From assembly GCA_963665405.2 (NCBI GenBank), contig CAXXUH010000003.1:292809-356808 (forward strand): a DNA stretch of 64,000 bases, read 5' to 3'. Origin of the DNA: Dehalococcoidia bacterium. Lineage in GTDB: Bacteria; Chloroflexota; Dehalococcoidia; Lucifugimonadales; G963665405. Below are positions 4,593 through 61,900 of this stretch, one piece after another. The number at the start of each line of letters is the position of its first letter. The first letter of the stretch is position 1. A program made the position numbers and the translations under genes. The notes beneath the pieces were generated by a model. The model was given only the letters and a program-made list of their open reading frames with translations, made no database searches and was not told the origin of the DNA.

Positions 4593-4741
4593 GGTGCGGT
4601 CTCGTCACTCGTTGGGGGCGAATAGAGACTAACAGGACCATGGTACCGGGGACCGGAGGACCTTTCGGCCATGCAGCGTAGAGGAAGCTGCTGATACGGT
4701 TAGAGACATCGCTCAGAGGCGTCGCAATAAGGAGAGGAAAG

Positions 4742-34788: not shown

Positions 34789-35250
34789 TCACCCCGCTCG
34801 GGCGGCCTCCAGCTCGTCGATGTGCTCTCTCCAGTGGTGCGCGATCGCCTGTAGACGGCGAATCGCGGACGACTCTCCATCCTCGTTGCGAACCAGAACC
34901 GTCACTCCTGGGTCGGGCAGCGCGCGGACCGCGGTGGCTAGTCGGGTCTGTAGGCCGCGAATTTCCTCGATCAGGTCCCCGACGCTCCGGCCGGCCATGC
35001 CCCCGACCGTTTCGGCGTTAAGCTCATCCGTTTTGCCTTGCAGCGTTGTCGGCCCGCCGCCCCGGCCGACCGACTCCATGCCCTCTACCGTCCCCCGGTG
35101 CCAGAACACCATGTGGGACAGGACCTCTCGTATGCCCCATTCCCCGACCCGGACGCCGGACGCCGCCCCCGGCCCTTCGAAATACTCTAGCCCGCGTTCC
35201 ACCGCCTTCTCAACCGCGGCGAGGAGCTCCTCGACCTGACCAGTAGGCAT
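34789..35250 (-). CDS. DinB/ClbS-like four-helix-bundle protein
   Basis: 153 aa. His-containing helices (LSHMVFWHRG, IAHHWREHIDEL) resemble the DinB superfamily. The assignment is by pattern only. Confidence 0.6.
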   Translation of the reverse strand: MPTGQVEELLAAVEKAVERGLEYFEGPGAASGVRVGEWGIREVLSHMVFWHRGTVEGMESVGRGGGPTTLQGKTDELNAETVGGMAGRSVGDLIEEIRGLQTRLATAVRALPDPGVTVLVRNEDGESSAIRRLQAIAHHWREHIDELEAARAG

Positions 35251-35315
35251 CGCTCAAGCCTCCGCTCTGAATCGTAACCCTCGGCCCGAAGTGCTTCGGG
35301 CCGGCTCGGGTAACC

Positions 35316-36255
35316 CTACAGGCGCGACCCGCTCGGCACAAGGTCCGCCGTGACCGGCGACGTCGGCAGCGGCGTCGGCACCGGCTCGGGCTGGATGGTA
35401 CGGTCGACGGCGTTCGCGATCCGCTCCACCTCTCGGGCGAGCACCGCCAGGTCCGCGGTCGCGATCGACTGCGGACCGTCGCACCTGGCCTCCGACGGGT
35501 TCGGATGCGCCTCGATCAGCAATCCGTCCGCCCCTGCGGCGATCGCCGCCTTAGCCATCGGGATGACCAGGTCCCGGCGGCCCGTCGCGTGGCTGGGATC
35601 GACGATCACGGGGAGGTGCGACTCCCTCTTCACGACCTGCACCGCGGTCAGGTCGAGGACGTTCCTGGTGAACTCGGAATCGAATCAGCACAAAAGTCTC
35701 TCCGTCCCGGCTGCGAATCCCGCGCTCGCAGAGGATGACGTTCGGGTTACCCGCCTTGAGTATGTACTCCGCGGACAGGAGCCACTCGCCGATCCCGGCG
35801 TGGAACCCCCGCTTCAGCAACACCGGCTTGCCCGCCGCCGCGACCGCCTCCAGAAGCCGGTACGCCTGCATCGTACGGGCACCGATCTGCAGGATGTCGG
35901 CGTGCCGGGCCACGTTTTCCACATCCATCTCGGACATGACCTCGGTCACGACCATCAGGCCGGTCTCGCGCCGAGCCTCATCGAGCAGGAGGAGGCCCTC
36001 GTCGTGGAGACCCTGGAAGCCGTGAGGCGACGTGCGTGGCTTGAAGGCTCCGCCTCGAAGAATCGGGAAGCCGGCCGCCTTCACCGCCGTCGCCGTATGC
36101 GCGAGCTGCTCCCGGCTCTCGACCGCGCAGGGGCCGACCATCATGACCACGCGACGGCCCCCGAACTCTATACCACCGGCCCTGACCCTGACACCGTTCC
36201 CGCCAGGGCCGGCCTGCTCACTGCCTGTGCCGTTGTCCTCCGCTCCTGCATCCAT
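35316..36255 (-). pseudogene. 3-deoxy-7-phosphoheptulonate (DAHP) synthase, class I-beta type, disrupted by a 25-nt insertion
   Basis: ORF 35551..36285 matches DAHPS up to NVILCERGIR. ORF 35316..35642 continues in another frame with ESHLPVIVDPSHATGRRDLV...GADGLLIEAHPNP. Deleting 35686-35710 restores GIR-RFDSEFTRNVLDLTAV in frame. The probable start ATG 36255 has AAGGAGGA upstream. Confidence 0.8.
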
Positions 36256-36286
36256 CTCCTGTCCTCCTTCTCCGTCTGCATGCACT

Positions 36287-36310
36287 AAAAAACCCTCCCG
36301 GTTGGGAGGG
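36287..36310 (-). terminator. Intrinsic terminator closing the island genes
   Basis: The minus strand reads CCCUCCC-AACC-GGGAGGG followed by UUUUUU, 47 nt downstream of the 94-aa ORF. Confidence 0.7.
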
Positions 36311-36356
36311 TGGTTCGCGATCGCCTAGGGTCTTCTTGCAGTTCGCTAGCTCGCGC

Positions 36357-36641
36357 TCATCCCTCCCCCGCCGTCGAGGTCGCATAAAAGTATCCAAAGA
36401 AGAAGACCACATTCCCGTGCCGGTTCACGGCGAGCTTCTCGCCCAGTAGTTCAGCCGCGGAACCGAGGCGGCGACGGATGGCAGCCGTCGTTTCGCCTGC
36501 GTCCGGGATGAGCTTTCCAGCTTGGCCGGTCCCGAGCTGTCCGATGTAGTCCATGTACTGTCGCATTATCGCGCCGCGCTTTCCGGTTAGGGACAATTCA
36601 AGCTGCGCATCCCGGAGTGAAACAACTTTGAGTGTTGGCAC
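36357..36641 (-). CDS. Hypothetical 94-aa protein (island gene 3)
   Basis: GTG start with AGGAGG 13 nt upstream. I recognise no family. Confidence 0.5.
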   Translation of the reverse strand: MPTLKVVSLRDAQLELSLTGKRGAIMRQYMDYIGQLGTGQAGKLIPDAGETTAAIRRRLGSAAELLGEKLAVNRHGNVVFFFGYFYATSTAGEG

Positions 36642-36713
36642 GTCCGTCAGGGACCTCCTGTCAAACTAGGCTCACGACATTGTTGGGCTGAATTCTGTGG
36701 ACGGCTTTGGCAC

Positions 36714-36968
36714 TCAACGAAGCCATCCACCGCTGTCGGTCTTGTTGTGTCGAGGATTCCGTCCGTGCTTTCGGCGGAAGTTGAACAGACGACTCGCCTC
36801 AGATCGGCGAGCGGCCCGGTCACTGGAGAATGACCGTTCTACTGTCATGCTGCCCGTCTTGCCGTCTCGTCGATGCTGCGCGGCCCGACGTCTCGGATTG
36901 GTGGTCTTGCCGATGTAGGTCGTCCGGCCCGTCCTTCGGAGAGAGTACACATAGTGTCTGCGGGCCAT
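36714..36968 (-). CDS. Minimal GIY-YIG nuclease-superfamily protein (island gene 2)
   Basis: HYVYSL...TTYIGKTTNPRRRAAQH...SEASRL...GRNPRHN fits GIY, YIG, Arg, Glu and Asn positions. The ORF stays open upstream to GTG 37061/37055 through a VOC-like leader. Confidence 0.65.
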   Translation of the reverse strand: MARRHYVYSLRRTGRTTYIGKTTNPRRRAAQHRRDGKTGSMTVERSFSSDRAARRSEASRLFNFRRKHGRNPRHNKTDSGGWLR

Positions 36969-37123
36969 TGCCAAGGCCCCCCGGTGATTGAGTTGCGTGA
37001 AGGATGCAAGATCACGCACACGCAGCACCACATGGCCCAACTTCTTGATGTTCACAACCACCTCCTTCGTTGTCTCAGATTACATCTAGAATCAGCAGGG
37101 GTCCTTCGCTTCGGCACTTATAC

Positions 37124-38227
37124 CTAATCTCCAGGCACCTCCTTTTTAGTTCGTGCGTCCCAAGGCTTTGATACAGATCTCACGATCTTATAGATCCGCT
37201 CGAAGCGTTGTATCGTACGCGGGTTCCACGACACTGTCGCCTTGATCAGCTTCCCATCAGGACTGTGCTCTGGCCACACCGTGTATCTGCCGAGTGCCTT
37301 GACACTGAGGATCAATCGGTTCTCGTGATGCAATTTGCCGCGGTCCAATCCTGACGCGCACGCGATCCGGACCTTGATGCGGTTGGACTTTTGCCGATCG
37401 AGAACCGGGCGCAGAGCACGTAATTCCGCAACATCATCGTACACGAAAATCCGCTCGACCTTTACCCCCTTCTTGGCGGTGTCGAAATTGATGTCCGAGT
37501 ATTGGACGCCTAGCAGAGCGTCCTTCCAGTCCGCAAGCTCATCGTAACTCACAGCGTGTATCCAGTCTCCGGCTGAAGTGTTTCCATACAGGTGCCCCAT
37601 GACGAGGTCGTGGTCATTCTCCCCATACTCGAGCTCGTCTGCCGAAACCAGCCTCCGAACCTGCCCCAAGCATTCTTCAAGCTTGTACTCAGCCCAGATG
37701 CGCTGTAGGCCTAAGGACTCTCTCACAGCATCTCGAAATAGCGAACAGAACTCAGGAAGACTCCCGACATGAAGCGGACCAAGCTCATCGATCCTTCCCA
37801 TTACTTGAGTGCACGCTGGGCTTACGGCCGCTTCAAAGTTCTTGTCCGCACGGCTACCATCGTAGCTCGCCATCGTCACGCCGAACAGATCCGTCGGAAT
37901 CTTCAGGCTCTGGGACCGATCCTCCAGGATGAATGTGCGTTCGCGACCTAGCAGACCCGTGAAGAGCCCCAGCTCGAAAAGGACATTGTCCCGAGGACCC
38001 AGTACCGTCTGGCCCCGGCTCTGAACAAGGTCGTCTGCAGTGAGCGCAAGCACGGCGAAGTCGAACTGACGAGCAGTCTCGACAAGGGATTCCAAGTAGC
38101 CTCTCGATAGTTCGAAAACCAAGGTCCACAGGGTCACATCAGCTGCGTATTGTAGGTTAGACTCGATCGCCCGAGCCACGTCCAGCCTTTCTTTCGTGGA
38201 TCCTATGAACACGCTCGGCCTAGTCAT
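37124..38227 (-). CDS. TIR-like (CAP12/Pycsar-effector-type, PF10137-like) domain protein with an unassigned about 230-aa C-terminal domain (island gene 1)
   Basis: N-terminal pattern VFIGSTKE...DFAVLALTADD...RDNVLFELGLFTGLLGRERTFIL...KIPTDLFGV. Start moved to ATG 38227 (ATG 38254 is also possible). The C-terminal domain has no family I can name. Confidence 0.75.
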   Translation of the reverse strand: MTRPSVFIGSTKERLDVARAIESNLQYAADVTLWTLVFELSRGYLESLVETARQFDFAVLALTADDLVQSRGQTVLGPRDNVLFELGLFTGLLGRERTFILEDRSQSLKIPTDLFGVTMASYDGSRADKNFEAAVSPACTQVMGRIDELGPLHVGSLPEFCSLFRDAVRESLGLQRIWAEYKLEECLGQVRRLVSADELEYGENDHDLVMGHLYGNTSAGDWIHAVSYDELADWKDALLGVQYSDINFDTAKKGVKVERIFVYDDVAELRALRPVLDRQKSNRIKVRIACASGLDRGKLHHENRLILSVKALGRYTVWPEHSPDGKLIKATVSWNPRTIQRFERIYKIVRSVSKPWDARTKKEVPGD

Positions 38228-38544
38228 ATTCGACCTGCCGTCACTTCCTCTCATGACTAGCATCAGGTCCCACACTGGGCGGTAGACGGCCATTGTAGCA
38301 ATACTATCAGGCCCGGATGTCGTACATAGTCCTCGAACGCTCCCCAAGGCGGTATGGGTAGTGCCGTGAGGTGAAAGGATCTTCCGGTAGGCACCGCCCT
38401 GGGCACTTTGGCGCCTGCAGGGAGATTGCCGCATCTTCAGGCATCGCTCTTGCGAACGTCAGGATCCTTACTGCGACCGGTCTGGACTTTTCCGTCCGGG
38501 ACAGAGAGAATTCGTCCTGTCCAGAAAGAGTTGGAGGTGCGGAG

Positions 38545-39768
38545 ATGGCTCAACGTTACGACCTTGTGCTGAAGGGCGGGGAGGTCCTCGACCCGAGCCA
38601 GGGGCTCAGGGGCGTCCAGGACGTCGCCTTCCGTGATGGCAAGGTGGCTGAGATCGTACCTGGAAGCGCCGTGGACGGCGCCCGGCAGGTTATCGACGTC
38701 TCGGGCAAGCTGGTGACGCCGGGACTGATTGACGTTCACGGCCACTACTACAACCACGTGGTGCCCTTCGCCACGGCGGCCGACGAGGTCTGCCTGCCCA
38801 ACGGCGTGACGACGACAGTCGACGCCGGAAGCTCCGGGTGGACCCACTTCGACGGGTTCAGGGAGTATATCCTCACCAGGGAGAAGACCCGTCTGATGGC
38901 GCTGGTCAACCTGTCGGCGCTCGGCATGCTCGACCCTCACCGCGACGGCGGCTTCGGGCCTACGACGATGACGATTAGCGGTGGCCCCAAGACGATGTTC
39001 CCGGACAATGCCGCCGGCGAGCTGATGGACCTCCGGTTCGCGCAGGTCGAAGAGACCATACGGTGCATCAAGGACAACCCCAACGTCGCCATCGGCGTCA
39101 AGATTCGGCTGGACGTCAGCATCAGCGGCGAGGCCAACAGCATCCCCGCTCTGGAGCGCGCGAGACAGGTGGCGGACGCCACCGGCACGTTCATAATGGT
39201 CCACGTCGCGCGAGTCCCCATACCCATGGCCAGGGTCTTCGAATACCTCCGGCCCGGCGACATCGTCACCCACATCTTCCACAGCGCCGAGAACAGCATC
39301 CTCGACGCCACGGGGAACGTAAGGACCGAGGTTCTCGAGGCGAAGTCCAAGGGCATCGTGATGGACATCGGCGCCATCCGGGGCAACTTCGGCCTCAACG
39401 TCTCGCAGGCGGCCATCGGGCAGCGTATGCTTCCGGACACCATCAGCACCGACTTGAGCATCCACAAGCACAAGCCCGGCCCCCCGCCGTACGTCCTGCC
39501 CGACCTGATGTCCCTGTTCATGGGCATCGGAATGTCGCTCGAAGAGGTGGTAACGGCGGTCACGGAGACGCCGGCCAAGGCCATCGGCGAGGCCGGCACG
39601 CTCGGAACCCTCCGAGCGGGAGCCGTCGGAGACGCCGCGGTGCTCGAGCTGGTGTCGGGAGACTTCACCTACGACGACGGCGAGGGCGTCGAGGTCACGA
39701 CCAAACAGCGCATCGCGCCGGTCATGACGATCAAGGACGGCAAGGTCTGGAAGCCGGACCCGGCGTGA
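38545..39768 (+). CDS. Amidohydrolase-superfamily metallohydrolase (deacetylase/dihydroorotase-like)
   Basis: MAQRYDLVLKGGEVLDPSQG...LIDVHGHYY pattern. ATG 38545 has GGAGGTGCGGAG upstream. Confidence 0.8.
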   Translation: MAQRYDLVLKGGEVLDPSQGLRGVQDVAFRDGKVAEIVPGSAVDGARQVIDVSGKLVTPGLIDVHGHYYNHVVPFATAADEVCLPNGVTTTVDAGSSGWTHFDGFREYILTREKTRLMALVNLSALGMLDPHRDGGFGPTTMTISGGPKTMFPDNAAGELMDLRFAQVEETIRCIKDNPNVAIGVKIRLDVSISGEANSIPALERARQVADATGTFIMVHVARVPIPMARVFEYLRPGDIVTHIFHSAENSILDATGNVRTEVLEAKSKGIVMDIGAIRGNFGLNVSQAAIGQRMLPDTISTDLSIHKHKPGPPPYVLPDLMSLFMGIGMSLEEVVTAVTETPAKAIGEAGTLGTLRAGAVGDAAVLELVSGDFTYDDGEGVEVTTKQRIAPVMTIKDGKVWKPDPA

Positions 39769-45895: not shown

Positions 45896-45937
45896 TCCGA
45901 ACGGGCATCCCTCAAAAGTAGTTTCCCACTTCCTAAG

Positions 45938-47649
45938 CCCGAATCCACCGAAGGTATGACGTTGCAGCAGCAGAATGGGTGATGAGGGGCAAAGGGAGGC
46001 GATGGTCCGGGCACGATTCGGGTAAATGGGGCCGGTGTCTGTCTTCAGCCGCCGCGGGGAGACCTTGTGACCGTCTGGGGACGTTGGGTAGGGCGAGATG
46101 GCGGGGAGAGGACGCGGCGAGAGGTGCTCGCGGACCGGACTGGCGCGAGTTTGCGGGGACGTTCGGTTGGGCGGATGGCGGGTCAGTTGCGGACGGGCGC
46201 CGTCAGGCTGGGAGTGGAATCGCTCGCAGCCGTGCCAGGGCGCGACTGAACTGGGTTTCCCAAGGCCAGCGCTGTGGCAGATGCAGGGTGAGGCGGCGTG
46301 CCGAGCGGGTGAGCCGTCCGGCCAGGGAGAAGAACCGTCGCCGAAGGGTCTTGGTGGTCGCGATCTGCTCGCCCAGACCGATCCGCGCCGTCCAGCGGGC
46401 CAGGTTGTGGGCCATCACCTGTACCGCCAGCCAAGCGCCGTTGGCGGCGAAGCGGCCGGACGGCATGTGGTTCAGACCGACGCCGTACTTGAGGTCTCGA
46501 ATGGCGTTCTCGATCTCGGCGTGGCGGCGGTGGTCGGCCTCCAGTTCCAGGGTCTCTCCGTCCCGGTCGGTGATGAAGCCGTGATAGCTGTAGGTGGCGA
46601 AGAGGGCCAGTTGGGAACCGGGCGTGGGCTTCACCCGCCGGACGATGAGCCGCACCGGTGCGGCGCCGGGCTCAGTCCGGAAGGGGGTGTAGGTGGTCTG
46701 CGCCACATCGGCGGCGCCGTCCATCCAGTAGGGGACCGGCGTCCAGTCTGCATCGGGAATCGCCTCGATCAGGTTCCGCAGGCTTTTGTGCTGGCGGATG
46801 GTGATGGAGAAGCGGACATCCATCTCACGACAGGCGGCGACGAGAGCGTGGGCGTAGAAGCCGCTGTCGGCCCGCGCCGTAAGTTGCCCGCTGGCCCCGG
46901 CACGGCGAACCCGGCTCACCGTTTCACGCAGGAAGTGGGCGGCGCCCCGAGCGGTGTTGGCGCGGCCCTCGCGCAGCCGGGACATCAGCACGTCGCCGGT
47001 GCCGGCGGCGACGGCCAACAGGGGGTGATAGCCCCGCTTGCCGGGATAGCCGTGGTGGCGCGCTCCCTCCTTGGCCAGTCCATAGGTCTCGCAGATGGTC
47101 GAGTCCAGGTCGATGGTCAGGGGCGAGTCGCCGGGTCCGGCCCCAGCGGCCCAGGCCCGGGCCAACAACTGGCGGCTCACGCGGTCGAGTTGACGGACAT
47201 GCCCCCACCGGAAGCTGCGCAGGAAGGTCCCCAGGGTGGATGGCGCCTTGACCACGCAGCCTAGAACACCGACCGTCCCACCAGCGCGCAGCGCATCGGC
47301 GTCGTCGATGCAGTCGCCGCCAGCCAGCGCGGAAGCGACCAGCGTCAGCATCTTGTCCCCCGTGTTCGCCCGTCCCGGCGCGCCGCCGAGGTCAAGGTGA
47401 TGGTCGACGAGTTCTCGCAGGCCCAGGTGCCGGGCGAGGGTGGCCGGCACGAGCAGGCCGGCATTGGCCACCAGGCGATGGTCGTCAAAGAGGATGCGGA
47501 TACGGTCGGGTTTGTTCTGTGGCAGCATCTATTGGGTGCTCCTTGTTTCCGCGCGGGTTTCTGTTCCAAAACCATTATCCCAGATTCAGAGGAGCACCCT
47601 CTAGCTTCTTCATGGGCTGTCCCCAAGGCCGTCCTTCGGTGGATTCGGG
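45938..47649 (-). mobile_element. IS1380-family insertion sequence, copy 1 (intact)
   Basis: Ends CCCGAATCCACCGAAGG... / ...CCTTCGGTGGATTCGGG are perfect inverted repeats. A 5-bp direct repeat CTAAG sits at 45933-45937 and 47650-47654. Confidence 0.85.
46203..47528 (-). CDS. IS1380-family DDE transposase
   Basis: 441 aa. LTIDLDST, HGYPGKRGYHPLLA and ADSGFY...IENAIRDLKYG are typical of IS1380-type DDE transposases. Confidence 0.9.
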   Translation of the reverse strand: MLPQNKPDRIRILFDDHRLVANAGLLVPATLARHLGLRELVDHHLDLGGAPGRANTGDKMLTLVASALAGGDCIDDADALRAGGTVGVLGCVVKAPSTLGTFLRSFRWGHVRQLDRVSRQLLARAWAAGAGPGDSPLTIDLDSTICETYGLAKEGARHHGYPGKRGYHPLLAVAAGTGDVLMSRLREGRANTARGAAHFLRETVSRVRRAGASGQLTARADSGFYAHALVAACREMDVRFSITIRQHKSLRNLIEAIPDADWTPVPYWMDGAADVAQTTYTPFRTEPGAAPVRLIVRRVKPTPGSQLALFATYSYHGFITDRDGETLELEADHRRHAEIENAIRDLKYGVGLNHMPSGRFAANGAWLAVQVMAHNLARWTARIGLGEQIATTKTLRRRFFSLAGRLTRSARRLTLHLPQRWPWETQFSRALARLRAIPLPA

Positions 47650-47654
47650 CTAAG

Positions 47655-47785
47655 GGGGCGACCGCCAATGGGGAGTACAGAGGGGCGAAGCCGCTTTGTC
47701 TGGAGTCTCCCGGCGCGCCGCCGAGGTCAAGGTGAGGGTGTCCCTCAGAAATACATTTTCCACTCTTCCCCTTAAGAGGGTGGGT
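47655..47785. repeat. Stacked-hairpin repeat copy carrying a 28-nt IS-derived segment
   Basis: CAGAGGGGCGAAGCCGCTTTG hairpin, then GGAGTCT-[insert]-GAGGGTGTCCCTCAGA. The insert region 47708-47735 is identical to IS interior 47373-47400. Confidence 0.85.
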
Positions 47786-50305: not shown

Positions 50306-50446
50306 GAACCCCGGCGTACACCCTCCCCGAAGGCCCCTGGACCCCGCACGTCAATCGCCACGGTTGCTCCAGGCCAATCGACCCGGTATCCTGATCGTCG
50401 AATCCCGAACCCCTTGCGGCATTCAGCCAACACGAAAGGCCGCAAC

Positions 50447-51769
50447 ATGACCGCCCCGACAGTGTTCATCAGCTACAGCCACGACTCCGAAGAACACGGA
50501 GATAGAGTGCTCGCCCTTGCGGATAGGTTGAGGCGCGAGGGCATAGACGCGAGCCTTGACCAGTACGAGGATTCTCCGCCCGAGGGGTGGCAAGGATGGA
50601 TGGACAGGCACGTCCGAGAGTCGGACTTCGTTCTCATGGTGTGTACTGAGACCTACTACCGCCGCGTCCTCCGAAAAGAGAAGCCGGGAGCGGGACGGGG
50701 AGTCAAGTGGGAAGGCAATCTGATCTATATCCACCTATACGAAGCCGAGGCGAACCGGCGCTTTATTCCCGTGGTTTTCGGAGACGGTAGCCTCGAACAC
50801 ATCCCTGACCCGCTAAGGAGCGCGACGCACTATCGCGTCGACACGAAACGGGGATACGAGGACCTGTATCGTCGCCTAACAGATCAGCCCGGGACGCCGA
50901 AACCCGCGCTGGGTAAGCCACAGAGCCTGGCCTCACGTCGGCGAAAACAGCAGTTCTCAACAGCCGTTGTAGCCCCAGCGCAACGGGTCTCCATAGCCCA
51001 GCTCCCCGCGACAGGCGAGCACCTCTTCGGCCGGGACGACGAGCTCAAGCTGCTCGACGAGGCCTGGGACAACTCCGCCACCAACGTCATCAGCCTGGTG
51101 GCGTTCGGCGGCGTGGGCAAGTCGGCGCTGGTGAACTATTGGCTCGGTCAGATGGCCCAGAACCAGTACCGCGGGGCAGAGCGCGTCTACGCCATCTCCT
51201 TCTACAGCCAGGGCAGCCGGGAGGCCGTCACCTCGGCGGATCAGCTGATCGACGCTGCGCTGCGCTGGTTTGGGGACGAGGACCCGACCTCGGGCTCTCC
51301 GTGGGGGAAGGGCGAGCGACTGGCCCGTCTGGTAAAACGCGATAAAACGCTGCTCGTGCTGGACGGCCTGGAGCCGCTCCAGCAGCCGCCCGGTCCGGAC
51401 GGAGGCCGGCTGAAGGAGCACACGCTGACAGCACTCGTGCGCGAGCTGGCGGCGTCCAACGAGGGGCTTTGCGTCATCACCACGCGCCAAGAGGTGGGTG
51501 ACCTGAAACAATTTGGCCGGTCTACCGCACCCGTAACGGAGCTGGAGCACCTGTCCGACAAGGCTGGAGCCCAGCTTCTCCGAGTGCTGGGAGTTGAAGG
51601 GCGGGATAGCGAGCTTGAGCAGGCTTCGCACGAGTTCGGCGGCCACGGCCTTGCGCTGAACCTCCTGGGCACCTACCTCCACGATGTGGCTGGGGGCGAC
51701 GTCCGCCGCTGGCGCGAAGTAGACCTGCTCGAGCAGGACGAGGAACAGGGGGTCAGGCTCTGCGTGTAA
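50447..51769 (+). CDS. TIR/SEFIR-like domain plus NB-ARC (STAND P-loop NTPase) protein; N-terminal part of a split TIR-NB-ARC-TPR gene
   Basis: VFISYSHDSEEH...SDFVLMVCT (TIR/SEFIR-like). Walker A AFGGVGKSALV, Walker B LLVLDGLE, and the GLPLA-like GGHGLALNLLG. The stop TAA overlaps the next ATG (TAATG). Confidence 0.8.
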   Translation: MTAPTVFISYSHDSEEHGDRVLALADRLRREGIDASLDQYEDSPPEGWQGWMDRHVRESDFVLMVCTETYYRRVLRKEKPGAGRGVKWEGNLIYIHLYEAEANRRFIPVVFGDGSLEHIPDPLRSATHYRVDTKRGYEDLYRRLTDQPGTPKPALGKPQSLASRRRKQQFSTAVVAPAQRVSIAQLPATGEHLFGRDDELKLLDEAWDNSATNVISLVAFGGVGKSALVNYWLGQMAQNQYRGAERVYAISFYSQGSREAVTSADQLIDAALRWFGDEDPTSGSPWGKGERLARLVKRDKTLLVLDGLEPLQQPPGPDGGRLKEHTLTALVRELAASNEGLCVITTRQEVGDLKQFGRSTAPVTELEHLSDKAGAQLLRVLGVEGRDSELEQASHEFGGHGLALNLLGTYLHDVAGGDVRRWREVDLLEQDEEQGVRLCV

Positions 51770-53271
51770 TGGCGTCATACGAGAAACGACTCGGCGAGGG
51801 TCCTGCACTGGCGGTACTTCGGCTCGTTGGGCTGTTCGACCGACCCGCGCCGGGAGAGCAGGTCCGGGTCCTCAGACGGCCGCCGGCCATCCCCGCCCTG
51901 ACCGATACGCTGGCGAACCTTTCCGACACGCAATGGCGGCGGGCTCTCGCGCGTTTGCGTCAGGCACGACTCCTGTCCGAGGCCGACCCTCAATCTGACG
52001 ACCTGGACGCCCACCCACTGGTGCGCGAACACTTCGGACAGCGGCTCAGGGAAGAGTCTCCGGACGCCTGGCGGGAGGGCCACAGCCGGCTGTACGAACA
52101 CTTGCGAGACAGCACCAAGAAGTTCCCTGACACGATCGAGGAGATGGCGCCCCTGTACTCGGCTGTGTCCCACGGCTGCCAGGCCGGACGTCACCAGGAG
52201 ACATTTGACGACGTGTACTACCGGCGCATCCAGCGCGACGGGAGAACAAACTATTCCTTTGCTCAGCTTGGAGCCGTTGGCGCAGATACATCAGCGTTGT
52301 CGTGGTTCTTTTCCCCGCCCTGGAGCCATCCAGCCGACGGCCTCAACGAAAGTGACAAGGCTTTTGTGCTTGGCGCGGCGGGTTTCCGCCTGCGCGCGTT
52401 GGGGCGACTACGCGAGGCCGTACAGCCGTTGCAGGCTGGGTTGGAGGCTCGGATTGAACAAGAGCAGTGGGAAAACGCCGCAATCGCCGCCAGCAACCTC
52501 AGCGACCTCCATCTCATCATGGGGGAGACCGGCGAAGCAGTCGACTACGCGCGGCAGGCCGTTGAGCTGGCCGATCGCAGCGGAGACCAGTTCCAACAGA
52601 TGGCCAGCAGAGTCAGGTTGGCCCAGTCCCTGCACCAGACCGGCCGGATAGCCGAGGCTGAGGCGCTCTTCGAGGAGGCGGAGAAGATCCAGCAAGAGTT
52701 CCAGCCCGGGTTTCCTATCTTATACTCCCTCCAGGGCTATCAATACTGCGACCTGCTGATCGACCAGGGCAAGTATGACGAGGTTAGAGAACGGACTGCG
52801 CAAACACTCGAATGGGTAACGAGGGAGCAGTTGCTCCTAGCCATGGCCCTCGACCACGTTGCCCTGGGTCGAGCGTCGCTGCTCCAGGCCAAGCGCGACG
52901 ACCGCCGAGACTTCGCAGAGGCTCGGAACCACCTGGACCAGGCCGTGGAGGGCCTGCGGCGGGCAGGCATCCAGGCGTTCATCGCCCACGGCCTACTGGC
53001 CCGTGCCGCGCTGTACCGGGTGAGCGGCAACTTCGATCAGGCGCAACGGGACCTGGAGGAGGCCATGGCCATAGCCGAGCGTGGGTCCATGAGGCTTTAC
53101 GAAGCCGACGCCCGCCTGGAGTACGCTCGGCTGCATCTCGCGACTGGCGAGGGGGACTCGGCACGCCAGAGCCTCGACGCCACCAGGAACATGATCGCCG
53201 AAATGGGCTACCACCGGCGCGACGGCGAAGTCCAGGAGCTTGAGCAGCGGCTTGCCGCGCAAGGAGCCTGA
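51769..53271 (+). CDS. Winged-helix/TPR repeat protein; C-terminal part of the split STAND gene
   Basis: SYEKRLGEGPALAVLRLVGLFDRPA (post-NB-ARC region) followed by multiple TPR-like helical repeats (ALGRLREAVQPLQAG, IMGETGEAVDYARQAVEL, QTGRIAEAEALFEEA and others). Confidence 0.8.
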   Translation: MASYEKRLGEGPALAVLRLVGLFDRPAPGEQVRVLRRPPAIPALTDTLANLSDTQWRRALARLRQARLLSEADPQSDDLDAHPLVREHFGQRLREESPDAWREGHSRLYEHLRDSTKKFPDTIEEMAPLYSAVSHGCQAGRHQETFDDVYYRRIQRDGRTNYSFAQLGAVGADTSALSWFFSPPWSHPADGLNESDKAFVLGAAGFRLRALGRLREAVQPLQAGLEARIEQEQWENAAIAASNLSDLHLIMGETGEAVDYARQAVELADRSGDQFQQMASRVRLAQSLHQTGRIAEAEALFEEAEKIQQEFQPGFPILYSLQGYQYCDLLIDQGKYDEVRERTAQTLEWVTREQLLLAMALDHVALGRASLLQAKRDDRRDFAEARNHLDQAVEGLRRAGIQAFIAHGLLARAALYRVSGNFDQAQRDLEEAMAIAERGSMRLYEADARLEYARLHLATGEGDSARQSLDATRNMIAEMGYHRRDGEVQELEQRLAAQGA

Positions 53272-55665: not shown

Positions 55666-55674
55666 GAGCTTTAG

Positions 55675-57357
55675 CCCGAATCCACCGAATGACGGCCTTG
55701 GGGACAGCCCATGAAGAAGCTAGAGGGTGCTCCTCTGAATCTGGGATAATGGTTTTGGAACAGAAACCCGCGCGGAAACAAGGAGCACCCAATAGATGCT
55801 GCCACAGAACAAACCCGACCGTATCCGCATCCTCTTTGACGACCATCGCCTGGTGGCCAATGCCGGCCTGCTCGTGCCGGCCACCCTCGCCCGGCACCTG
55901 GGCCTGCGAGAACTCGTCGACCATCACCTTGACCTCGGCGGCGCGCCGGGACGGGCGAACACGGGGGACAAGATGCTGACGCTGGTCGCTTCCGCGCTGG
56001 CTGGCGGCGACTGCATCGACGACGCCGATGCGCTGCGCGCTGGTGGGACGGTCGGTGTTCTAGGCTGCGTGGTCAAGGCGCCATCCACCCTGGGGACGTT
56101 CCTGCGCAGCTTCCGGTGGGGGCATGTCCGTCAACTCGACCGCGTGAGCCGCCAGTTGTTGGCCCGGGCCTGGGCCGCTGGGGCCGGACCCGGCGACTCG
56201 CCCCTGACCATCGACCTGGACTCGACCATCTGCGAGACCTATGGACTGGCCAAGGAGGGAGCGCGCCACCACGGCTATACCGGCAAGCGGGGCTATCACC
56301 CCCTGTTGGCCGTCGCCGCCGGCACCGGCGACGTGCTGATGTCCCGGCTGCGCGAGGGCCGCGCCAACACCGCTCGGGGCGCCGCCCACTTCCTGCGTGA
56401 AACGGTGAGCCGGGTTCGCCGTGCCGGGGCCAGCGGGCAACTTACGGCGCGGGCCGACAGCGGCTTCTACGCCCACGCTCTCGTCGCCGCCTGTCGTGAG
56501 ATGGATGTCCGCTTCTCCATCACCATCCGCCAGCACAAAAGCCTGCGGAACCTGATCGAGGCGATTCCCGATGCAGACTGGACGCCGGTCCCCTACTGGA
56601 TGGACGGCGCCGCCGATGTGGCGCAGACCACCTACACCCCCTTCCGGACTGAGCCCGGCGCCGCACCGGTGCGGCTCATCGTCCGGCGGGTGAAGCCCAC
56701 GCCCGGTTCCCAACTGGCCCTCTTCGCCACCTACAGCTATCACGGCTTCATCACCGACCGGGACGGAGAGACCCTGGAACTGGAGGCCGACCACCGCCGC
56801 CACGCCGAGATCGAGAACGCCATTCGAGACCTCAAGTACGGCGTCGGTCTGAACCACATGCCGTCCGGCCGCTTCGCCGCCAACGGCGCTTGGCTGGCGG
56901 TACAGGTGATGGCCCACAACCTGGCCCGCTGGACGGCGCGGATCGGTCTGGGCGAGCAGATCGCGACCACCAAGACCCTTCGCGACGGTTCTTCTCCCTG
57001 GCCGGACGGCTCACCCGCTCGGCACGCCGCCTCACCCTGCATCTGCCACAGCGCTGGCCTTGGGAAACCCAGTTCAGTCGCGCCCTGCACGGCTGCGAGC
57101 GATTCCACTCCCAGCCACGGCGCCCGTCCGCAACTGACCCGCCATCCGCCCAACCGAACGTCCCCGCAAACTCGCGCCAGTCCGGTCCGCGAGCACCTCT
57201 CGCCGGCGTCCTCTCCCCGCCATCTCGCCCTACCCAACGTCCCCAGACGGTCACAATCACCGGCCCCATTTACCCGAATCGTGCCCGGACCATCGCCTCC
57301 CTTTGCCCCTCATCACCCATTCTGCTGCTGCAACATCATACCTTCGGTGGATTCGGG
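55675..57357 (+). mobile_element. IS1380-family insertion sequence, copy 2
   Basis: Same termini as copy 1. 5-bp direct repeat TTTAG at 55670-55674 and 57358-57362. It lacks a 28-nt segment present in copy 1. Confidence 0.85.
55796..57116 (+). pseudogene. IS1380-family transposase, frameshifted
   Basis: Identical to copy 1 over about 395 aa apart from a P/T difference. CTTCGCGACGG (about 56977-56987) corresponds to CTTCGGCGACGG in copy 1, a loss of one G. This changes the frame so the last about 45 aa are replaced and the ORF reads through to 57430. Confidence 0.8.
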
Positions 57358-57368
57358 TTTAGCTTTAG

Positions 57369-58924: not shown

Positions 58925-61900
58925 GTGTTGGGCCATCCGCCCTTCGAGGGCGTCGACAACGTCATCGGCCGGCCCATCTTCCTGCCGCCGCTGGACCTGG
59001 CGAATGCTCAGCCCATCGACCCTGCGGTGAACACCACAGTCAGTGTCGTCTTGCGGGAAGGTGAAGAGCCCGTTTCAGTCTTCGTGGCTCCAGGCAGTCT
59101 GGAGGATCAGGACGGCAACCTCTACACCGGATTGCTCAGCATCACCGAGGTTCCACCGGACCTAACCCCGGCGGCCTTGCCGGACGACCTGCTTCCGGAT
59201 ACTGTCGTGACCATCCAGCCCGGCGAGATGGTCTTCACCACACCGGCGCCGATTACGTTCCCCAACCGAGCTGGCTTCCCGGCTGGAAGCGACATGGAGC
59301 TCTGGTCGATCAGCCCTGTCACAGGCGTGTTTGAACAGGTGGGCACAATGCGGGTCAGTGCCGACGGAAGCGTGATTGAAACGATCTCCGGCGGCATCCG
59401 CAACAGTAGCTGGCACTTCCCAGTGCCGCCCCCGCCGCCAGAGACCCTGGACCCGACAGACGACGACTTCAACCCCGACGAGTGTCAGGCATGCGGTGGC
59501 CAAGCGAGCGGCTCTGCTAGCTCTGAGATCCAGTTCTACACGGGAGCGCTGATCGAGACCCACGAGCTCGTACCCTACCAGTCCCAGGGCGTGGGCCGCG
59601 GCTTGACCCTGAGATATAGCTCGTTGACCGCGGACCCACGGCCCATCGTGCACCTCGGTATGGACAACGTCCCGTTCTTAGGGGTCGACGGGCGAATGGC
59701 CACCAGTCTGGTCATCGACCTGGGTGGGTTCAACGTGGTGTCTGGTGGTTTTTGGCACTTGCCTCTACCCGGAAGCTTTAGAGGCGCGCTGATGCCCGTC
59801 GGGAGCATCGATCGCAGCGGTCGTTATCCTTACCAGGTGACGGTGGGATTCGGTCGCATTTTTGCGAACTGCGTTATCTCTATTGGGTGTTCCACACATT
59901 TCATTGGCAGATTCTCTCAAGCGGCTCGAGGGACCCTGATCAGCGTCAGTGCTATCTCCAGCCCGTTCGGCGCCGGCTGGGCACTGGCCGGGTGGCAGGA
60001 GCTGGTGGAGAACGCCGATGGGTCGGTGCTGCTCATCGACGGCAATGGAACGACGGTGGTCTTCAGCAACCCCCAGGATGGCGTCTATGAATCTCCCCCC
60101 GGAGACTTCTCGACGCTGAAGAGGCTCCCCGGCGGAACCTTCAGCCGCACCCTCAAGGACCAGACCGAGTTCCTGTTCAACGACGAGAACAAGCTCGCGC
60201 TGGTGCGAGACCGCAACGGCAACGAGACCCGCCACGAGTATGACACCGCGGGCAGACTCATCAAGATCGTCGACCCGGTGGGCCTGGAAACGGTCTTCAC
60301 CTACACGGAGATTCCGGGCGTGGGGGACAGGATCACCTCCATCACCGATCCTGCCGGTCGCACAACCCAGCTGGAGCATGACGACAGAGGCAATCTGACT
60401 CGAATCACCGACCCCGACGGTTCGGCGCGGACCTTCGAGTACGACGACCAGCACCACCTGACCGCCGAGATCGACAAGCTGGGGAATCGGGAGGAGGCCT
60501 TTTACGACCCCGTCTCCGGGCGGGCTACCGGAGCGCTTCGCAAGGACGGGTCATTCGTAAGTGTCGATCCGGTAGCGACGCGAGGTCTCCACCCCCGGCA
60601 ATTTGGGCTGGGAGGACTCATCGACGCGCCCTTTGCGGTCAATCGCGGCGACCCCATAGCTAGCTACGCCGACGCCAACGGCAACATGACCACCACGACG
60701 CTTGACACCCTGGGGCAAGCGGCTTCTTCATTCGACGCCATAGGCTCCTTGGGAGCTACCGTACGCGACGAGGACCACCTGGTCGTCGCTCGCACGGATG
60801 GTGAGGGCAATGCCACCTTCTTCGAATACGACGAACGCGGAAACCTGACCCGAGTGCTCGATGACCTAGCCGGCGGTGTCGTCAGGTGGGTCAACCTGGC
60901 AGGGGGGGATTGGCTAAATCCGGACAATTGGAACACCGGCGTCGTCCCTGGTCCATCTGACAACGTCTTCATCGGGCTCGATGGCGGGACCTATCAGGTC
61001 ACCCTCTCGACCAATGTAACGATCAGATCCTTGACCGTGGGCGGGAGCGTCGGGACGCAGCTGCTGGCTCTTACCGGCAGCACCGTGATCGCCCCCGCAG
61101 GAGTGCATATCAGGGCCAGCGCTATCGTCAACCTTCGCAGCAGCACGATCAATGGGGATCTGCTGAACGACGGGACGCTGCTGGCCCGAGCCACCAGCGC
61201 GATCAACGGGGCGTTGAGCAACGGAGTGGACGCGACGCTGAGGGTAGAGGGACTGGCAGCTATTGCTCATGCGACACTCACGGTGGCGAACGGCTTCACC
61301 AACGAGGGGCTGATCGAGCTGTTCGGCGACGTCTCCTTCCGCTCGGCGACGCTGAACGTGAGCGCGGGGACTCTGGTCAACGCGGTGGGTGGGAGCATCG
61401 ACGCGCTGGCTGGCGGTGGGGGTCCCCGGGCCCTCAATGCCCAGCTCGACAACCAGGGGACGCTGACGGTGAGCCAGGTGCTGACCATCGGCAAGGCGTC
61501 TGCGGCCCACACCAACAGCGGGACGATCAGCGTCACCGGCGGCAACCTGACGCTGAACCAGTCGGGGACGTCTCCGAGCTTCACCAGCACGGGCGGCATC
61601 ACGTTGGCCGCGGGCCGGACGCTGACGATCAACGGCGGGACACTGAACCACGACGCGGGGAGCATCGGCGGTGAGGGCGCCCTGGCCCTGTCCGGCGTGG
61701 CCGTCAACCTGGGAGTCGACTTCGCCAACGACGTGGGCGCCCTCTCCTTCACCAACTCGACCGTCAACGGCCCAGGGATACTGACCAACCCAGTGGGGAA
61801 GACCATGACCGTCGCCGGTACCACGATCAATGCGGAGCTGGCGAACCTGGGGACACTGCGGGCGCGGGCCACCAGCGCGATCAACGGGGCGTTGAGCAAC

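What the first reader, a model, noticed from the sequence alone, without database searches (positions are those of the whole stretch)
36357..38227. Lower-GC three-gene island: TIR-like effector-type protein with an unknown C-terminal domain, a minimal GIY-YIG nuclease and a 94-aa protein; candidate undescribed defence module
Seen: three co-oriented minus-strand genes lie in a stretch that is visibly less GC-rich than its surroundings. They are closed by a strong intrinsic terminator (36287-36310).
- Gene 1 (368 aa) has an N-terminal domain with the pattern VFIGSTKE / DFAVLALTADD / RDNVLFELGLFTGLLGRERTFIL / KIPTDLFGV. Its C-terminal roughly 230 aa (WIHAVSYDELADWKD...GVKVERIFVYDD...NRIKVRIA...) I cannot assign.
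- Gene 2 is an 84-aa GIY-YIG core.
- Gene 3 is unassigned.

Known: this TIR-like family (PF10137 type) supplies effectors in CBASS (Cap12) and Pycsar. There it is fused to a nucleotide-sensor domain and encoded beside a cyclase. No cyclase, SAVED or cNMP-binding signature is visible here.

Inference: this is a self-contained sensor-effector (NADase-like) protein partnered with a nuclease, possibly a new defence or abortive-infection configuration.
Basis: partly seen in the sequence, partly recalled or inferred. Interest (0 to 1): 0.8.

Follow-up and report, generated by a model that had tools for sequence, protein, structure and literature searches.

The report
Lone TIR enzyme with PLD-like sensor
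A horizontally acquired gene in a Chloroflexota genome joins a Cap12/Pycsar-type TIR (NAD-degrading) domain to a catalytically dead phospholipase-D-fold domain that probably acts as its sensor; the two small genes beside it are independent repeated elements, not its partners.

Summary
Three co-oriented minus-strand ORFs lie in a low-GC stretch (0.53-0.59 against 0.65-0.70; GC3 0.64-0.66 against 0.82-0.92) that ends at a terminator-like hairpin.

Gene 1 (37124-38227) has a clear PF10137 TIR domain. The Glu of its RDNVLFELG motif aligns with FEFG of Cap12. The unassigned C-terminal 218 aa model confidently (pLDDT 92.7) as a PLD fold. The closest structures are the TrmB/TrmBL2 regulator domain and Nuc-type nucleases. 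The HxK(x)4D motif is absent. The same domain occurs fused to XRE-type HTH domains and to hydrophobic, putatively two-helix membrane N-termini, and some relatives weakly match DUF6879. This fits a sensor or regulatory module.

The three-gene module is not supported. The other TIR-PLD-like gene that has readable flanks has neither small gene beside it. The 84-aa GIY-YIG gene is a conserved family in Chloroflexota and Acidimicrobiia genomes (dN/dS 0.07-0.29). Its neighbours vary, none of those scanned is a TIR, and its element has a shared 5' boundary. Gene 3 is a 3'-truncated copy of an abundant, multi-copy ~101-aa gene that sits among insertion sequences.

No cyclase lies nearby.

Verdict: a rare stand-alone TIR effector with a new sensor domain, which is a new variant of a known kind, next to mobile debris. 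Its function is inferred, not shown.

The parts
36300..38600 (.). Low-GC, low-GC3 stretch, probably horizontally acquired mosaic DNA. It lies between a DAHP synthase gene and an amidohydrolase gene.
   Evidence: GC is 0.53-0.59 against 0.65-0.70. GC3 is 0.64-0.66 against 0.82-0.92. Flanking genes were identified by Pfam.
37124..38227 (-). Gene 1: a 367-aa TIR-like plus PLD-like fusion protein. Alternative in-frame starts are at 38293 (389 aa) and 38434 (436 aa).
   Evidence: ORF. The 99%-identical P0001 is called as 389 aa. Full-length homologues are P0002 (48% identity) and the 323-aa P0137 (47% by tblastn on L011).
37859..38212 (-). Cap12/PycTIR-type TIR domain (residues 6-123).
   Evidence: PF10137 E=1.4e-26. 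PADLOC CBASS TIR effector and PycTIR models give E of 1e-35 to 1e-44. PDB Cap12 7UN8 gives E=4.8e-22, Cap12 9LMQ 1.9e-20 and PycTIR 8JSJ 1.4e-15.
37973..37975 (-). Codon of Glu85 in the RDNVLFELG motif, the predicted catalytic glutamate.
   Evidence: Translation and position. It aligns with FEFG of Cap12 and with EFG of PycTIR. That this Glu is catalytic is taken from knowledge of TIR NADases, not tested here.
37127..37780 (-). C-terminal domain (residues 150-367): two long helices followed by a PLD-fold core without the HKD motif. Proposed sensor or oligomerisation module.
   Evidence: AlphaFold2 pLDDT 92.7 and pTM 0.86. Foldseek hits TrmBL2/TrmB, Nuc, BfiI, Zucchini, NucT and PLD3 at E of 5e-7 to 1e-3, and viral NucT-like/PLD proteins. 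No Pfam or PDB sequence hit. HxK(x)4D is absent. Homologues are fused to HTH domains or to hydrophobic N-termini.
36714..36968 (-). Gene 2: an 84-aa minimal GIY-YIG nuclease-family protein, an independent and probably mobile mini-gene.
   Evidence: PF01541 23.9 bits. Fifteen related clusters at 59-98% identity, eight of them exactly 84 aa. Conserved GIY, YIG, R, E and N. dN/dS 0.07-0.29. Neighbours differ between loci.
36969..37061 (-). In-frame upstream extension of gene 2. The part from 36969 to 37008 is the conserved 5' flank of the GIY-YIG element. The part from 37009 to 37061 is locus-specific: a strong SD, a GTG, and 'VNIKKLGHVVLRVRDL', which looks like the N-terminus of a VOC/glyoxalase protein.
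   Evidence: Sequence. In seven loci the DNA homology to the window starts at the same point, window 37008. L014 and L015 have a different extension upstream of 'ASFTQL'. The VOC resemblance is by eye only.
36357..36641 (-). Gene 3: a 94-aa ORF, a 3'-truncated copy of a repeated ~101-aa gene. Only 36398-36681 is homologous to the family. The last 12 codons are locus-specific and the family's basic tail is missing.
   Evidence: 162 homologues at E<=0.01; the 120 listed are 60-99% identical and most cover residues 1-82 only. Family consensus. All DNA matches end at window 36398. dN/dS is about 0.2.
36292..36311 (-). Intrinsic-terminator-like hairpin with a T-run, closing the three ORFs.
   Evidence: with the sequence. 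The scan's hit count does not exceed the shuffled control.

Best explanation
The stretch is a horizontally acquired mosaic, not an operon-type module.

Its one substantial gene, gene 1, is a rare stand-alone effector protein. An N-terminal Cap12/PycTIR-type TIR domain (predicted NAD+ hydrolase, Glu85) is joined through two long helices to a catalytically inactive PLD-fold domain. That domain resembles the regulatory domain of TrmB-family regulators and is distantly related to DUF6879.

Proposed mechanism, by analogy with TIR-STING, TIR-SAVED and PycTIR (inferred, not shown):
1. The PLD-like domain binds a trigger. The trigger could be a small molecule or nucleotide, or a nucleic-acid or phage-derived cue.
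2. Binding changes the oligomeric state and brings the TIR domains together.
3. The assembled TIR domains form active NADase sites, which leads to NAD+ depletion and abortive infection or growth arrest.

The two small genes downstream are not partners. Gene 2 is an autonomous, probably mobile minimal GIY-YIG gene. Gene 3 is a truncated copy of a multi-copy ~101-aa repeat gene of these Chloroflexota genomes.
For: Shown:
- The TIR domain is identified and the FELG Glu aligns with Cap12 and PycTIR.
- The C-terminal domain is a PLD fold at high model confidence. The top structural neighbours are TrmBL2/TrmB, then PLD nucleases.
- The domain has no HxK(x)4D motif. The equivalent strand reads HHENRLILS, with only the Asn invariant among the seven close relatives.
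- The same domain (40-46% identity) is fused to XRE-type HTH domains in P0138-P0141. At lower identity (about 32-33%) it follows hydrophobic N-termini in P0142-P0144, which I read by eye as two membrane helices. Nine of 38 relatives weakly hit DUF6879. One domain attached to alternative output modules is the pattern expected of a sensor or regulatory module.
- No cyclase, STING, SAVED or cNMP-binding domain was detected in gene 1 or in the flanking genes.
- Composition is atypical.
- The trio is not conserved.
- The GIY-YIG element has a shared 5' boundary at window 37008 and sits in varied contexts rich in mobile elements and defence genes.
- Gene 3's family is multi-copy. One identical protein is found on 16 contigs, inside a repeat of about 0.65-1 kb among IS elements. 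The window copy is truncated at 36398.

Inferred: NADase activity, ligand-triggered oligomerisation, and a defence role.
Against: - No experiment bears on any of this.
- The architecture is very rare. Three distinct sequences were found in the protein searches, and the C-terminal-domain scan of JGI metagenomes returned one locus, an HTH-fused one.
- The immediate neighbours are metabolic genes, not defence genes. The only defence-type gene noticed in the window is a bSEFIR-like gene 12 kb away.
- Contexts of the domain's other homologues were too short to be informative.
- The ligand is unknown. The PLD-like domain could merely mediate dimerisation.
- Foldseek TM-scores are modest (0.44-0.51).
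- The start codon is uncertain.
- No 'empty site' genome was available to prove insertion.
Confidence: 0.55

Rival explanations
1. One reading: the three genes form one co-operating defence module, with a TIR sensor-effector, a GIY-YIG nuclease and a small accessory protein.
For: The genes are co-oriented, have short gaps (62 and 72 bp if the GTG starts are used), share low GC, and end at a single terminator-like hairpin. The arrangement is conserved at 99% identity in two related strains.
Against: - The two strains are near-identical, so they are not independent evidence.
- P0002 has neither small gene next to it.
- Apart from those two strains, none of the 25 other loci carrying a GIY-YIG homologue encodes a relative of gene 1, and no PF10137 family was reported among 56 of their neighbouring ORFs.
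- Gene 3 is a truncated copy of a repeat that occurs in more than 10 unrelated contexts.
- The GIY-YIG element has its own conserved boundary at 37008, inside the putative intergenic region or extension.
Confidence: 0.05
2. Gene 1 is an orphan effector of a signalling system encoded elsewhere. The PLD-like domain would be the receptor for a nucleotide second messenger made in trans, and the HTH-fused and membrane-type homologues would be alternative outputs of the same signal.
For: Every characterised PF10137 effector (Cap12, PycTIR) is messenger-activated; this rests on established knowledge, and the PDB matches are. One sensor domain on TIR, HTH or hydrophobic N-terminal outputs resembles the SAVED/CARF repertoire.
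Against: No cyclase or other signal synthase was found in the 64-kb window by the PADLOC scan, and none among the genes next to the homologues with readable flanks. PLD-fold messenger receptors are not known.
Confidence: 0.2
3. Gene 1 is not an immune gene. It would be a regulatory or metabolic NAD- or nucleotide-processing protein, or non-functional cargo left in a decaying mobile region.
For: The neighbours are metabolic genes. The adjacent DNA is visibly degraded: gene 3 is truncated and a locus-specific leader is fused to the GIY-YIG gene. The architecture is rare.
Against: The ORF is intact. Catalytic and structural motifs are conserved at 44-48% identity across three lineages, with many invariant residues in the C-terminal domain. 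The TIR domain is closest to immune effectors.
Confidence: 0.15
4. The C-terminal domain is an active PLD-family nuclease or phosphodiesterase, which would make gene 1 a dual TIR plus nuclease effector.
For: Foldseek matches Nuc, BfiI, Zucchini, NucT and PLD3.
Against: There is no HxK(x)4D motif in the window protein, and it occurs in only 1 of the 38 relatives. His and Lys are not conserved at the equivalent strand. The best structural matches are the non-catalytic TrmBL2/TrmB domains.
Confidence: 0.05

Closest known systems
CBASS Cap12 (TIR-STING; PDB 7UN8, 7UNA, 9LMQ). The related TIR-SAVED effector is cited from the literature, not matched here.
   Same: Same TIR subfamily (PF10137), with 76-82 bits to the PDB chains and a conserved (F/L)E(F/L)G glutamate. 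The order is the same: N-terminal TIR, then a C-terminal regulatory domain.
   Different: The C-terminal domain is a PLD fold, not STING or SAVED. The NCBIfam Cap12 equivalog score is 112 against a cut-off of 450. No CD-NTase lies nearby.
Pycsar PycTIR (PDB 8JSJ; PADLOC PDLC02371)
   Same: Same TIR subfamily (E=1.7e-35 to the PADLOC model and 1.4e-15 to the PDB chain).
   Different: In PycTIR the TIR domain is C-terminal, after the sensor region (the matches fall at PADLOC profile positions 150-287 and PDB chain residues 156-299). Here it is N-terminal. There is no pyrimidine cyclase and no cNMP-binding region.
TrmB-family C-terminal regulatory domain (PDB 5BPD and 5BOX for TrmBL2, 2F5T for the TrmB sugar-binding domain; the TrmB effector-binding domain is Pfam PF11495)
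   Same: These are the best structural neighbours of the C-terminal domain, and the match includes the preceding long helices. The HTH-fused homologues P0138-P0141 mirror the TrmB layout of an HTH domain, a helical linker (a coiled-coil dimerisation helix in TrmB) and an effector-binding domain, as described in PMC4158304.
   Different: There is no sequence-level match to any Pfam family, including PF11495. TM-scores are only 0.44-0.48. Sugar binding is not implied. The review in PMC4158304 describes TrmBL2 as lacking the sugar-binding part of the domain. Here the partner is a TIR domain, not a wHTH.
PLD-superfamily nucleases (Nuc 1BYR, BfiI 2C1L, Zucchini 4GEM, NucT 6EHI)
   Same: Same fold (E of 1e-5 to 3e-4, TM up to 0.51 on the query and 0.70 on Nuc).
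   Different: The catalytic HxK(x)4D motif is missing.
DUF6879 (PF21806)
   Same: Nine of 38 relatives of the C-terminal domain hit it weakly, best E=4.1e-6.
   Different: The window protein and its close relatives do not hit it at E<=10. DUF6879 itself has no known function, and no paper in the library mentions it.
Stand-alone minimal GIY-YIG proteins (prokaryotic Slx1-like group; PMC1564403)
   Same: Gene 2 is a bare GIY-YIG domain with no auxiliary domain, as described for the 'minimal variant'. The GIY, YIG, Arg and Glu residues are kept.
   Different: At 84 aa it is at the small end of the range. It forms its own tight family in Chloroflexota and Acidimicrobiia, with a conserved 40-nt 5' flank and varied insertion contexts. 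Assignment to the Slx1-like or the UvrC/homing branch was not tested.

Membership tests
PF10137 Cap12/PycTIR-type TIR domain | Match to the family HMM above the curated cut-off | tested here: met
   93.3 bits against 24.7, residues 6-123, nearly the full profile (2-118 of 119).
PF10137 Cap12/PycTIR-type TIR domain | Conserved catalytic glutamate in the (F/L)E(F/L)G motif | tested here: met
   Glu85 in RDNVLFELG aligns with RDNVVFEFG of Cap12 7UN8 and 9LMQ, and with RDNVHLEFG of PycTIR 8JSJ. The catalytic role of this residue comes from prior knowledge.
PF10137 Cap12/PycTIR-type TIR domain | NAD+ hydrolase activity | not testable with these tools
   Needs a biochemical assay.
CBASS (Cap12 effector of a CD-NTase operon) | CD-NTase cyclase encoded beside the effector | tested here: not met
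   No cyclase among the Pfam families on record for called genes within about 10 kb. No Cdn model among the PADLOC hits for 52 window ORFs.
CBASS (Cap12 effector of a CD-NTase operon) | STING or SAVED sensor domain fused to the TIR domain | tested here: not met
   The NCBIfam Cap12 equivalogs match only residues 3-135, at 112 and 99 bits against a cut-off of 450. The C-terminal domain is a PLD fold.
Pycsar (PycTIR) | Pyrimidine cyclase PycC adjacent, and a cNMP-sensing region N-terminal to the TIR domain | tested here: not met
   The PADLOC PycTIR model matches only through its TIR part (profile 150-287). No cyclase is present. The domain order is reversed.
PLD superfamily (catalytic) | PLD fold | tested here: met
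   Foldseek to Nuc, BfiI, Zucchini, NucT, PLD3 and PPK at E of 1e-5 to 1e-3, using a model with pLDDT 92.7.
PLD superfamily (catalytic) | HxK(x)4D (HKD) active-site motif | tested here: not met
   A regular-expression search found the motif nowhere in the window protein and in 1 of 38 relatives. The equivalent strand is HHENRLILS, and only the Asn is invariant among the seven close relatives.
TrmB-family effector-binding domain (PF11495) | Sequence match to the family, and structural similarity | tested here: inconclusive
   Structural similarity is the best in the PDB (E=5e-7, TM 0.44-0.48). There is no Pfam hit even at E<=10.
DUF6879 (PF21806) | Match to the family HMM | tested here: inconclusive
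   The window domain gives no hit. Nine of 38 phmmer-linked relatives hit it at E<=0.01, best 4.1e-6. The individual hits seen were below the 23.9-bit cut-off.
GIY-YIG nuclease superfamily (PF01541) | HMM match and the GIY, YIG, Arg, Glu and Asn residues | tested here: met
   23.9 bits against 22.6, which is marginal and covers only the N-terminal half of the profile. Y7, Y17, G19, R27, E56 and N70/N74 are invariant in the family.
GIY-YIG homing endonuclease (I-TevI/Seg type) | A DNA-binding domain appended to the catalytic domain | tested here: not met
   The protein is 84 aa, the catalytic core only.
GIY-YIG homing endonuclease (I-TevI/Seg type) | Presence/absence polymorphism at otherwise conserved sites, that is, mobility | tested here: inconclusive
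   The gene lies in many unrelated contexts with a common 5' boundary. No matched occupied and empty sites were compared.
   They co-occur only in two 99.5%-identical strains. L001 has gene 1 alone. The 25 other GIY-YIG loci have no gene 1. Ten gene-3 loci have neither. Genes 2 and 3 are adjacent in L015, and a gene-3 remnant follows gene 2 in L005.

The most novel reading that the evidence does not exclude
The inactive PLD-fold (DUF6879-related, TrmB-like) domain is a previously unrecognised receptor module of prokaryotic conflict and signalling systems. It would sense one class of ligand, possibly an unknown nucleotide-type messenger or a phage-derived cue, and would be wired to at least three outputs: a TIR NADase (this gene), hydrophobic, putatively two-helix membrane N-termini, and an XRE-type HTH transcription factor. 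That would parallel SAVED, CARF and STING but on an unrelated fold. Separately, the 84-aa GIY-YIG gene and the ~101-aa gene may be new kinds of very small mobile cassettes in Chloroflexota.
Probability: 0.2. Interest if true: 0.7.

Novelty: new variant of a known kind. Interest (0 to 1): 0.4.

Why it matters
PF10137 TIR effectors are so far understood only as the output arm of cyclase-based systems (CBASS, Pycsar), where a STING, SAVED or cNMP-type sensor drives filament formation and NAD+ depletion. In this protein the same effector sits on a different, catalytically dead PLD-fold domain and has no cyclase nearby. The domain is also attached to HTH domains and to hydrophobic, membrane-type N-termini.

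If the domain is a true sensor, that would add a new receptor fold to bacterial immune signalling and give a first functional handle on the DUF6879-like proteins.

The practical lesson is also useful. Gene adjacency in a low-GC patch was misleading here, because two of the three genes are independent repeated elements.

Tried and rejected
1. Sequence searches of the C-terminal domain against Pfam (E<=10), PDB sequences (E<=10), PADLOC, NCBIfam and PHROGs gave nothing useful.
2. The genomic context of C-terminal-domain homologues was uninformative. The contigs were 1-7 kb. Neighbours were a methyltransferase fragment, an HTH_17 protein and unknowns, with no cyclase. The JGI metagenome scan returned a single locus.
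3. The viral-contig scans with the C-terminal domain, the GIY-YIG gene and gene 3 were all negative. No sign of a phage origin was found in that collection.
4. Gene 3's fold: the AlphaFold2 model has pLDDT 80.7, but no PDB match has E<0.01 and the top hits are designed proteins. No Pfam, PHROG or PADLOC hit either.
5. Island boundaries: there is no tRNA in the window, no Rfam hit between 30 and 45 kb, and no convincing flanking direct or inverted repeats.
6. No sigma-70-like promoter was found between 36.0 and 38.8 kb.
7. The first alignment used for the genome scan was too diverse and had to be trimmed.
8. The idea that gene 2's upstream extension is a remnant of a VOC/glyoxalase gene stays a visual impression. 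Pfam gives no such hit.
Full report

Yes. Three ORFs lie head to tail on the minus strand:
- Gene 1, 37124-38227, 367 aa. Alternative in-frame starts are at 38293 and 38434.
- Gene 2, 36714-36968, an 84-aa core. An in-frame GTG at 37061 follows a strong GAAGGAGG Shine-Dalgarno and gives 115 aa.
- Gene 3, 36357-36641, 94 aa.

GC falls to 0.53-0.59 between about 36.4 and 38.6 kb, against 0.65-0.70 on both sides. Third-position GC is 0.64 for gene 1 and 0.66 for gene 2, against 0.82-0.92 for most of the larger ORFs in the window. This is the signature of foreign DNA in a high-GC genome.

A hairpin with a T-run lies at 36292-36311. The scan finds about as many such sites in shuffled sequence, so it counts only as a plausible terminator.

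The window is 99.5% identical to two metagenome-assembled contigs. The closest GIY-YIG relatives are in Chloroflexota and Dehalococcoidia MAGs. The organism is therefore most likely a Dehalococcoidia-class Chloroflexota bacterium.

**2. Gene 1, N-terminal half**

- PF10137 (CAP12-PCTIR_TIR) matches residues 6-123 at E=1.4e-26.
- PADLOC's CBASS TIR-effector and PycTIR models match the same part at E of 1e-35 to 1e-44.
- The NCBIfam Cap12 equivalogs reach only 112 and 99 bits against a cut-off of 450, because nothing beyond the TIR domain matches.
- Among solved structures the domain aligns with Cap12 TIR-STING (7UN8, E=4.8e-22), a second Cap12 (9LMQ) and PycTIR (8JSJ).
- Its RDNVLFELG motif lines up with their RDNVVFEFG and RDNVHLEFG. 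Glu85 is therefore the expected catalytic residue. That role is taken from prior knowledge of TIR NADases.

**3.

No sequence library recognises it.

An exhaustive phmmer search of 1.84 billion cluster representatives found 37 relatives:
- One is another TIR fusion (P0137).
- Four are XRE-type HTH fusions at 40-45% identity (P0138-P0141).
- Weaker ones (P0142-P0144) have long hydrophobic N-termini that I read by eye as two membrane helices.
- One carries a methyltransferase domain.
- Nine of 38 weakly hit DUF6879.

With this alignment AlphaFold2 gave a confident model (pLDDT 92.7, pTM 0.86). It has two long helices followed by an alpha/beta core.

Foldseek against the PDB ranks TrmBL2 and TrmB first (E down to 5e-7). 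These are archaeal regulators built from an HTH domain, a coiled-coil dimerisation helix and a C-terminal effector-binding domain (PMC4158304). After them comes the PLD superfamily: Nuc, BfiI, Zucchini, NucT, PPK and PLD3. The viral library gives NucT-like and PLD-like proteins.

The PLD catalytic signature HxK(x)4D is absent. The corresponding strand reads HHENRLILS, and among the seven close relatives only the Asn is invariant.

The domain is therefore a catalytically dead PLD fold. It recurs on different output modules (TIR, HTH, hydrophobic N-termini), which is what a sensor or regulatory module looks like. The HTH-fused relatives reproduce the TrmB layout of HTH, helices and effector-binding domain.

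**4. Is there a three-gene module?**

No.

Full-length relatives of gene 1 are very few:
- P0001, which is the same gene.
- P0002, 48% identical.
- P0137, 47% identical, on a 1.1-kb contig.

P0002's 4-kb contig has a methionine-synthase-like gene upstream. Downstream there are only ORFs with no similarity to genes 2 or 3.

*Gene 2*
- It belongs to a tight family of 84-aa proteins. Fifteen related clusters are 59-98% identical, and eight of them are exactly 84 aa.
- The family keeps the GIY, YIG, Arg, Glu and Asn positions.
- It evolves under purifying selection, with dN/dS of 0.07-0.29.
- Nineteen genome loci carry it: Dehalococcoidia at 59-93% identity, plus one partial match, and Acidimicrobiia at 53-62%.
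- Its neighbours differ from locus to locus. They include ApeA and toxin-antitoxin genes, HsdR and YgjP, NucS-like proteins and a methyltransferase, Beta-protein and dCTP deaminase, Mom, resolvase and several transposases, and also transaldolase, dehydrogenases and transporters. No PF10137 protein appears among the families reported.
- In seven loci the DNA similarity to the window begins at exactly the same base, window 37008, which is 40 nt upstream of the ATG. The unit therefore has its own 5' end.
- The 53 nt further upstream in the window are locus-specific: the SD, the GTG, and 'VNIKKLGHVVLRVRDL'.
- A bare GIY-YIG domain without auxiliary domains is a known kind, the 'minimal variant' of PMC1564403.

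*Gene 3*
- It has 162 homologues at E<=0.01. The 120 listed are 60-99% identical and almost all are 100-105 aa. Most match only residues 1-82 of the window ORF.
- The family ends in a basic tail, FFWEE..APRRRGRRRK. In the window this tail is replaced by 12 unrelated codons.
- Every DNA match to the window stops at 36398.
- One identical family member is encoded on 16 contigs. It lies inside a repeat of about 0.65-1 kb, among IS elements, and one copy of the repeat is itself split by an IS.
- dN/dS of about 0.2 shows that it is a real protein. Its model has no structural neighbour.

Genes 2 and 3 are adjacent again in one Dehalococcoidia MAG (L015), between transposases. A remnant of gene 3's first 31 codons follows the GIY-YIG gene in L005. 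Gene 2 therefore seems to land next to the gene-3 repeat. Neither is tied to gene 1.

**5. Context**

The called genes within 10 kb are metabolic: amidohydrolase, acyl-CoA synthetase, enoyl-CoA hydratase, amidase, DAHP synthase and a DinB-like protein. No cyclase or other signal synthase was detected by the PADLOC scan of 52 window ORFs. There are no tRNA genes, Rfam hits or flanking repeats. None of the three genes has relatives in the viral contig collection.

**6. Most likely mechanism**

- Shown: a Cap12/PycTIR-type TIR domain with its glutamate, fused to an inactive PLD-fold domain that is shared with HTH-fused and membrane-type proteins.
- Inferred: by analogy with TIR-STING, TIR-SAVED and PycTIR, where ligand binding to the sensor drives oligomerisation and assembles the NADase sites, the PLD-like domain with its preceding helices binds an unknown trigger and switches on NAD+ hydrolysis. 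The outcome would be growth arrest or abortive infection.

Rivals:
- An orphan effector that listens to a messenger made elsewhere (0.2).
- A non-immune or decaying gene (0.15).
- A dual TIR plus nuclease enzyme (0.05).
- The original three-gene module (0.05).

**7. Novelty and score**

The effector domain and the general logic are known. The PLD-fold partner is a new arrangement, and no description of it turned up in the literature searches. The absence of a cyclase is also unusual for this TIR subfamily.

It is rare and untested, and its genomic context gives little support for a defence role. I rate it a new variant of a known kind, with interest 0.4.

Noticed in passing
window 50414-51766 (+), with neighbour 51769-53268 (+): A 451-aa protein with a strong bacterial SEFIR match. 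PADLOC bSEFIR gives E=3.3e-57 over residues 10-184, and the PDB SEFIR domain 5Y8E gives E=1e-11. It is followed by a 500-aa TPR-repeat protein. This is a second STIR-superfamily defence-type gene, 12 kb from gene 1.
   Followed up: partly
window 45936-47655 and 55666-57360: Two copies of a ~1.7-kb IS that encodes a 441-aa DDE_Tnp_1_4 transposase bracket the bSEFIR region. The related strain L003 carries an extra copy inserted at about window 35015, so IS content differs between strains.
   Followed up: partly
window 35316-36285 (-): The DAHP synthase gene is split into 244-aa and 108-aa ORFs in the window but is a single 341-aa gene in L003. The adjoining 35011-35556 aligns to L003 at only 93% identity with 14 gap openings. 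This is probably long-read indel error rather than a true pseudogene.
   Followed up: partly
window 37009-37061 (-): A strong SD (GAAGGAGG) and a GTG open an in-frame leader, 'VNIKKLGHVVLRVRDL', that resembles the N-terminus of a VOC/glyoxalase protein. It may be the stump of a gene disrupted when the GIY-YIG element arrived. The same leader occurs in P0121 and, frame-shifted, in P0136. The resemblance has no HMM support.
   Followed up: partly
L032-L041 at about 3657-4660, and L039 at 4349: The ~101-aa gene-3 family lies in a repeat of about 0.65-1 kb that also carries a 56-aa ORF. The repeat is found in many contexts in Chloroflexota assemblies. In five loci it lies 466 bp from a divergent DDE_Tnp_1_4 transposase gene (intact in three, disrupted in two). 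In L039 it is split by an IS. The nature of this repeat is unknown.
   Followed up: partly
L016 4998-5252: The GIY-YIG homologue in this Dehalococcoidia MAG has an in-frame stop at codon 11, so some copies are decaying.
   Followed up: no
window 15.5-19.0 kb and 59.1-62.3 kb: Further clusters of ORFs with low GC3 (0.59-0.66), including a 471-aa ORF at 60914-62329. They have no PADLOC hits and may be additional foreign DNA.
   Followed up: no
L012 2531-3943 and L042 1449-2906 (P0140-like): One HTH-fused relative is 470-485 aa long and has an extra ~190-aa unassigned region between the HTH domain and the PLD-like domain. It lies next to a 531-aa protein with no Pfam match.
   Followed up: no
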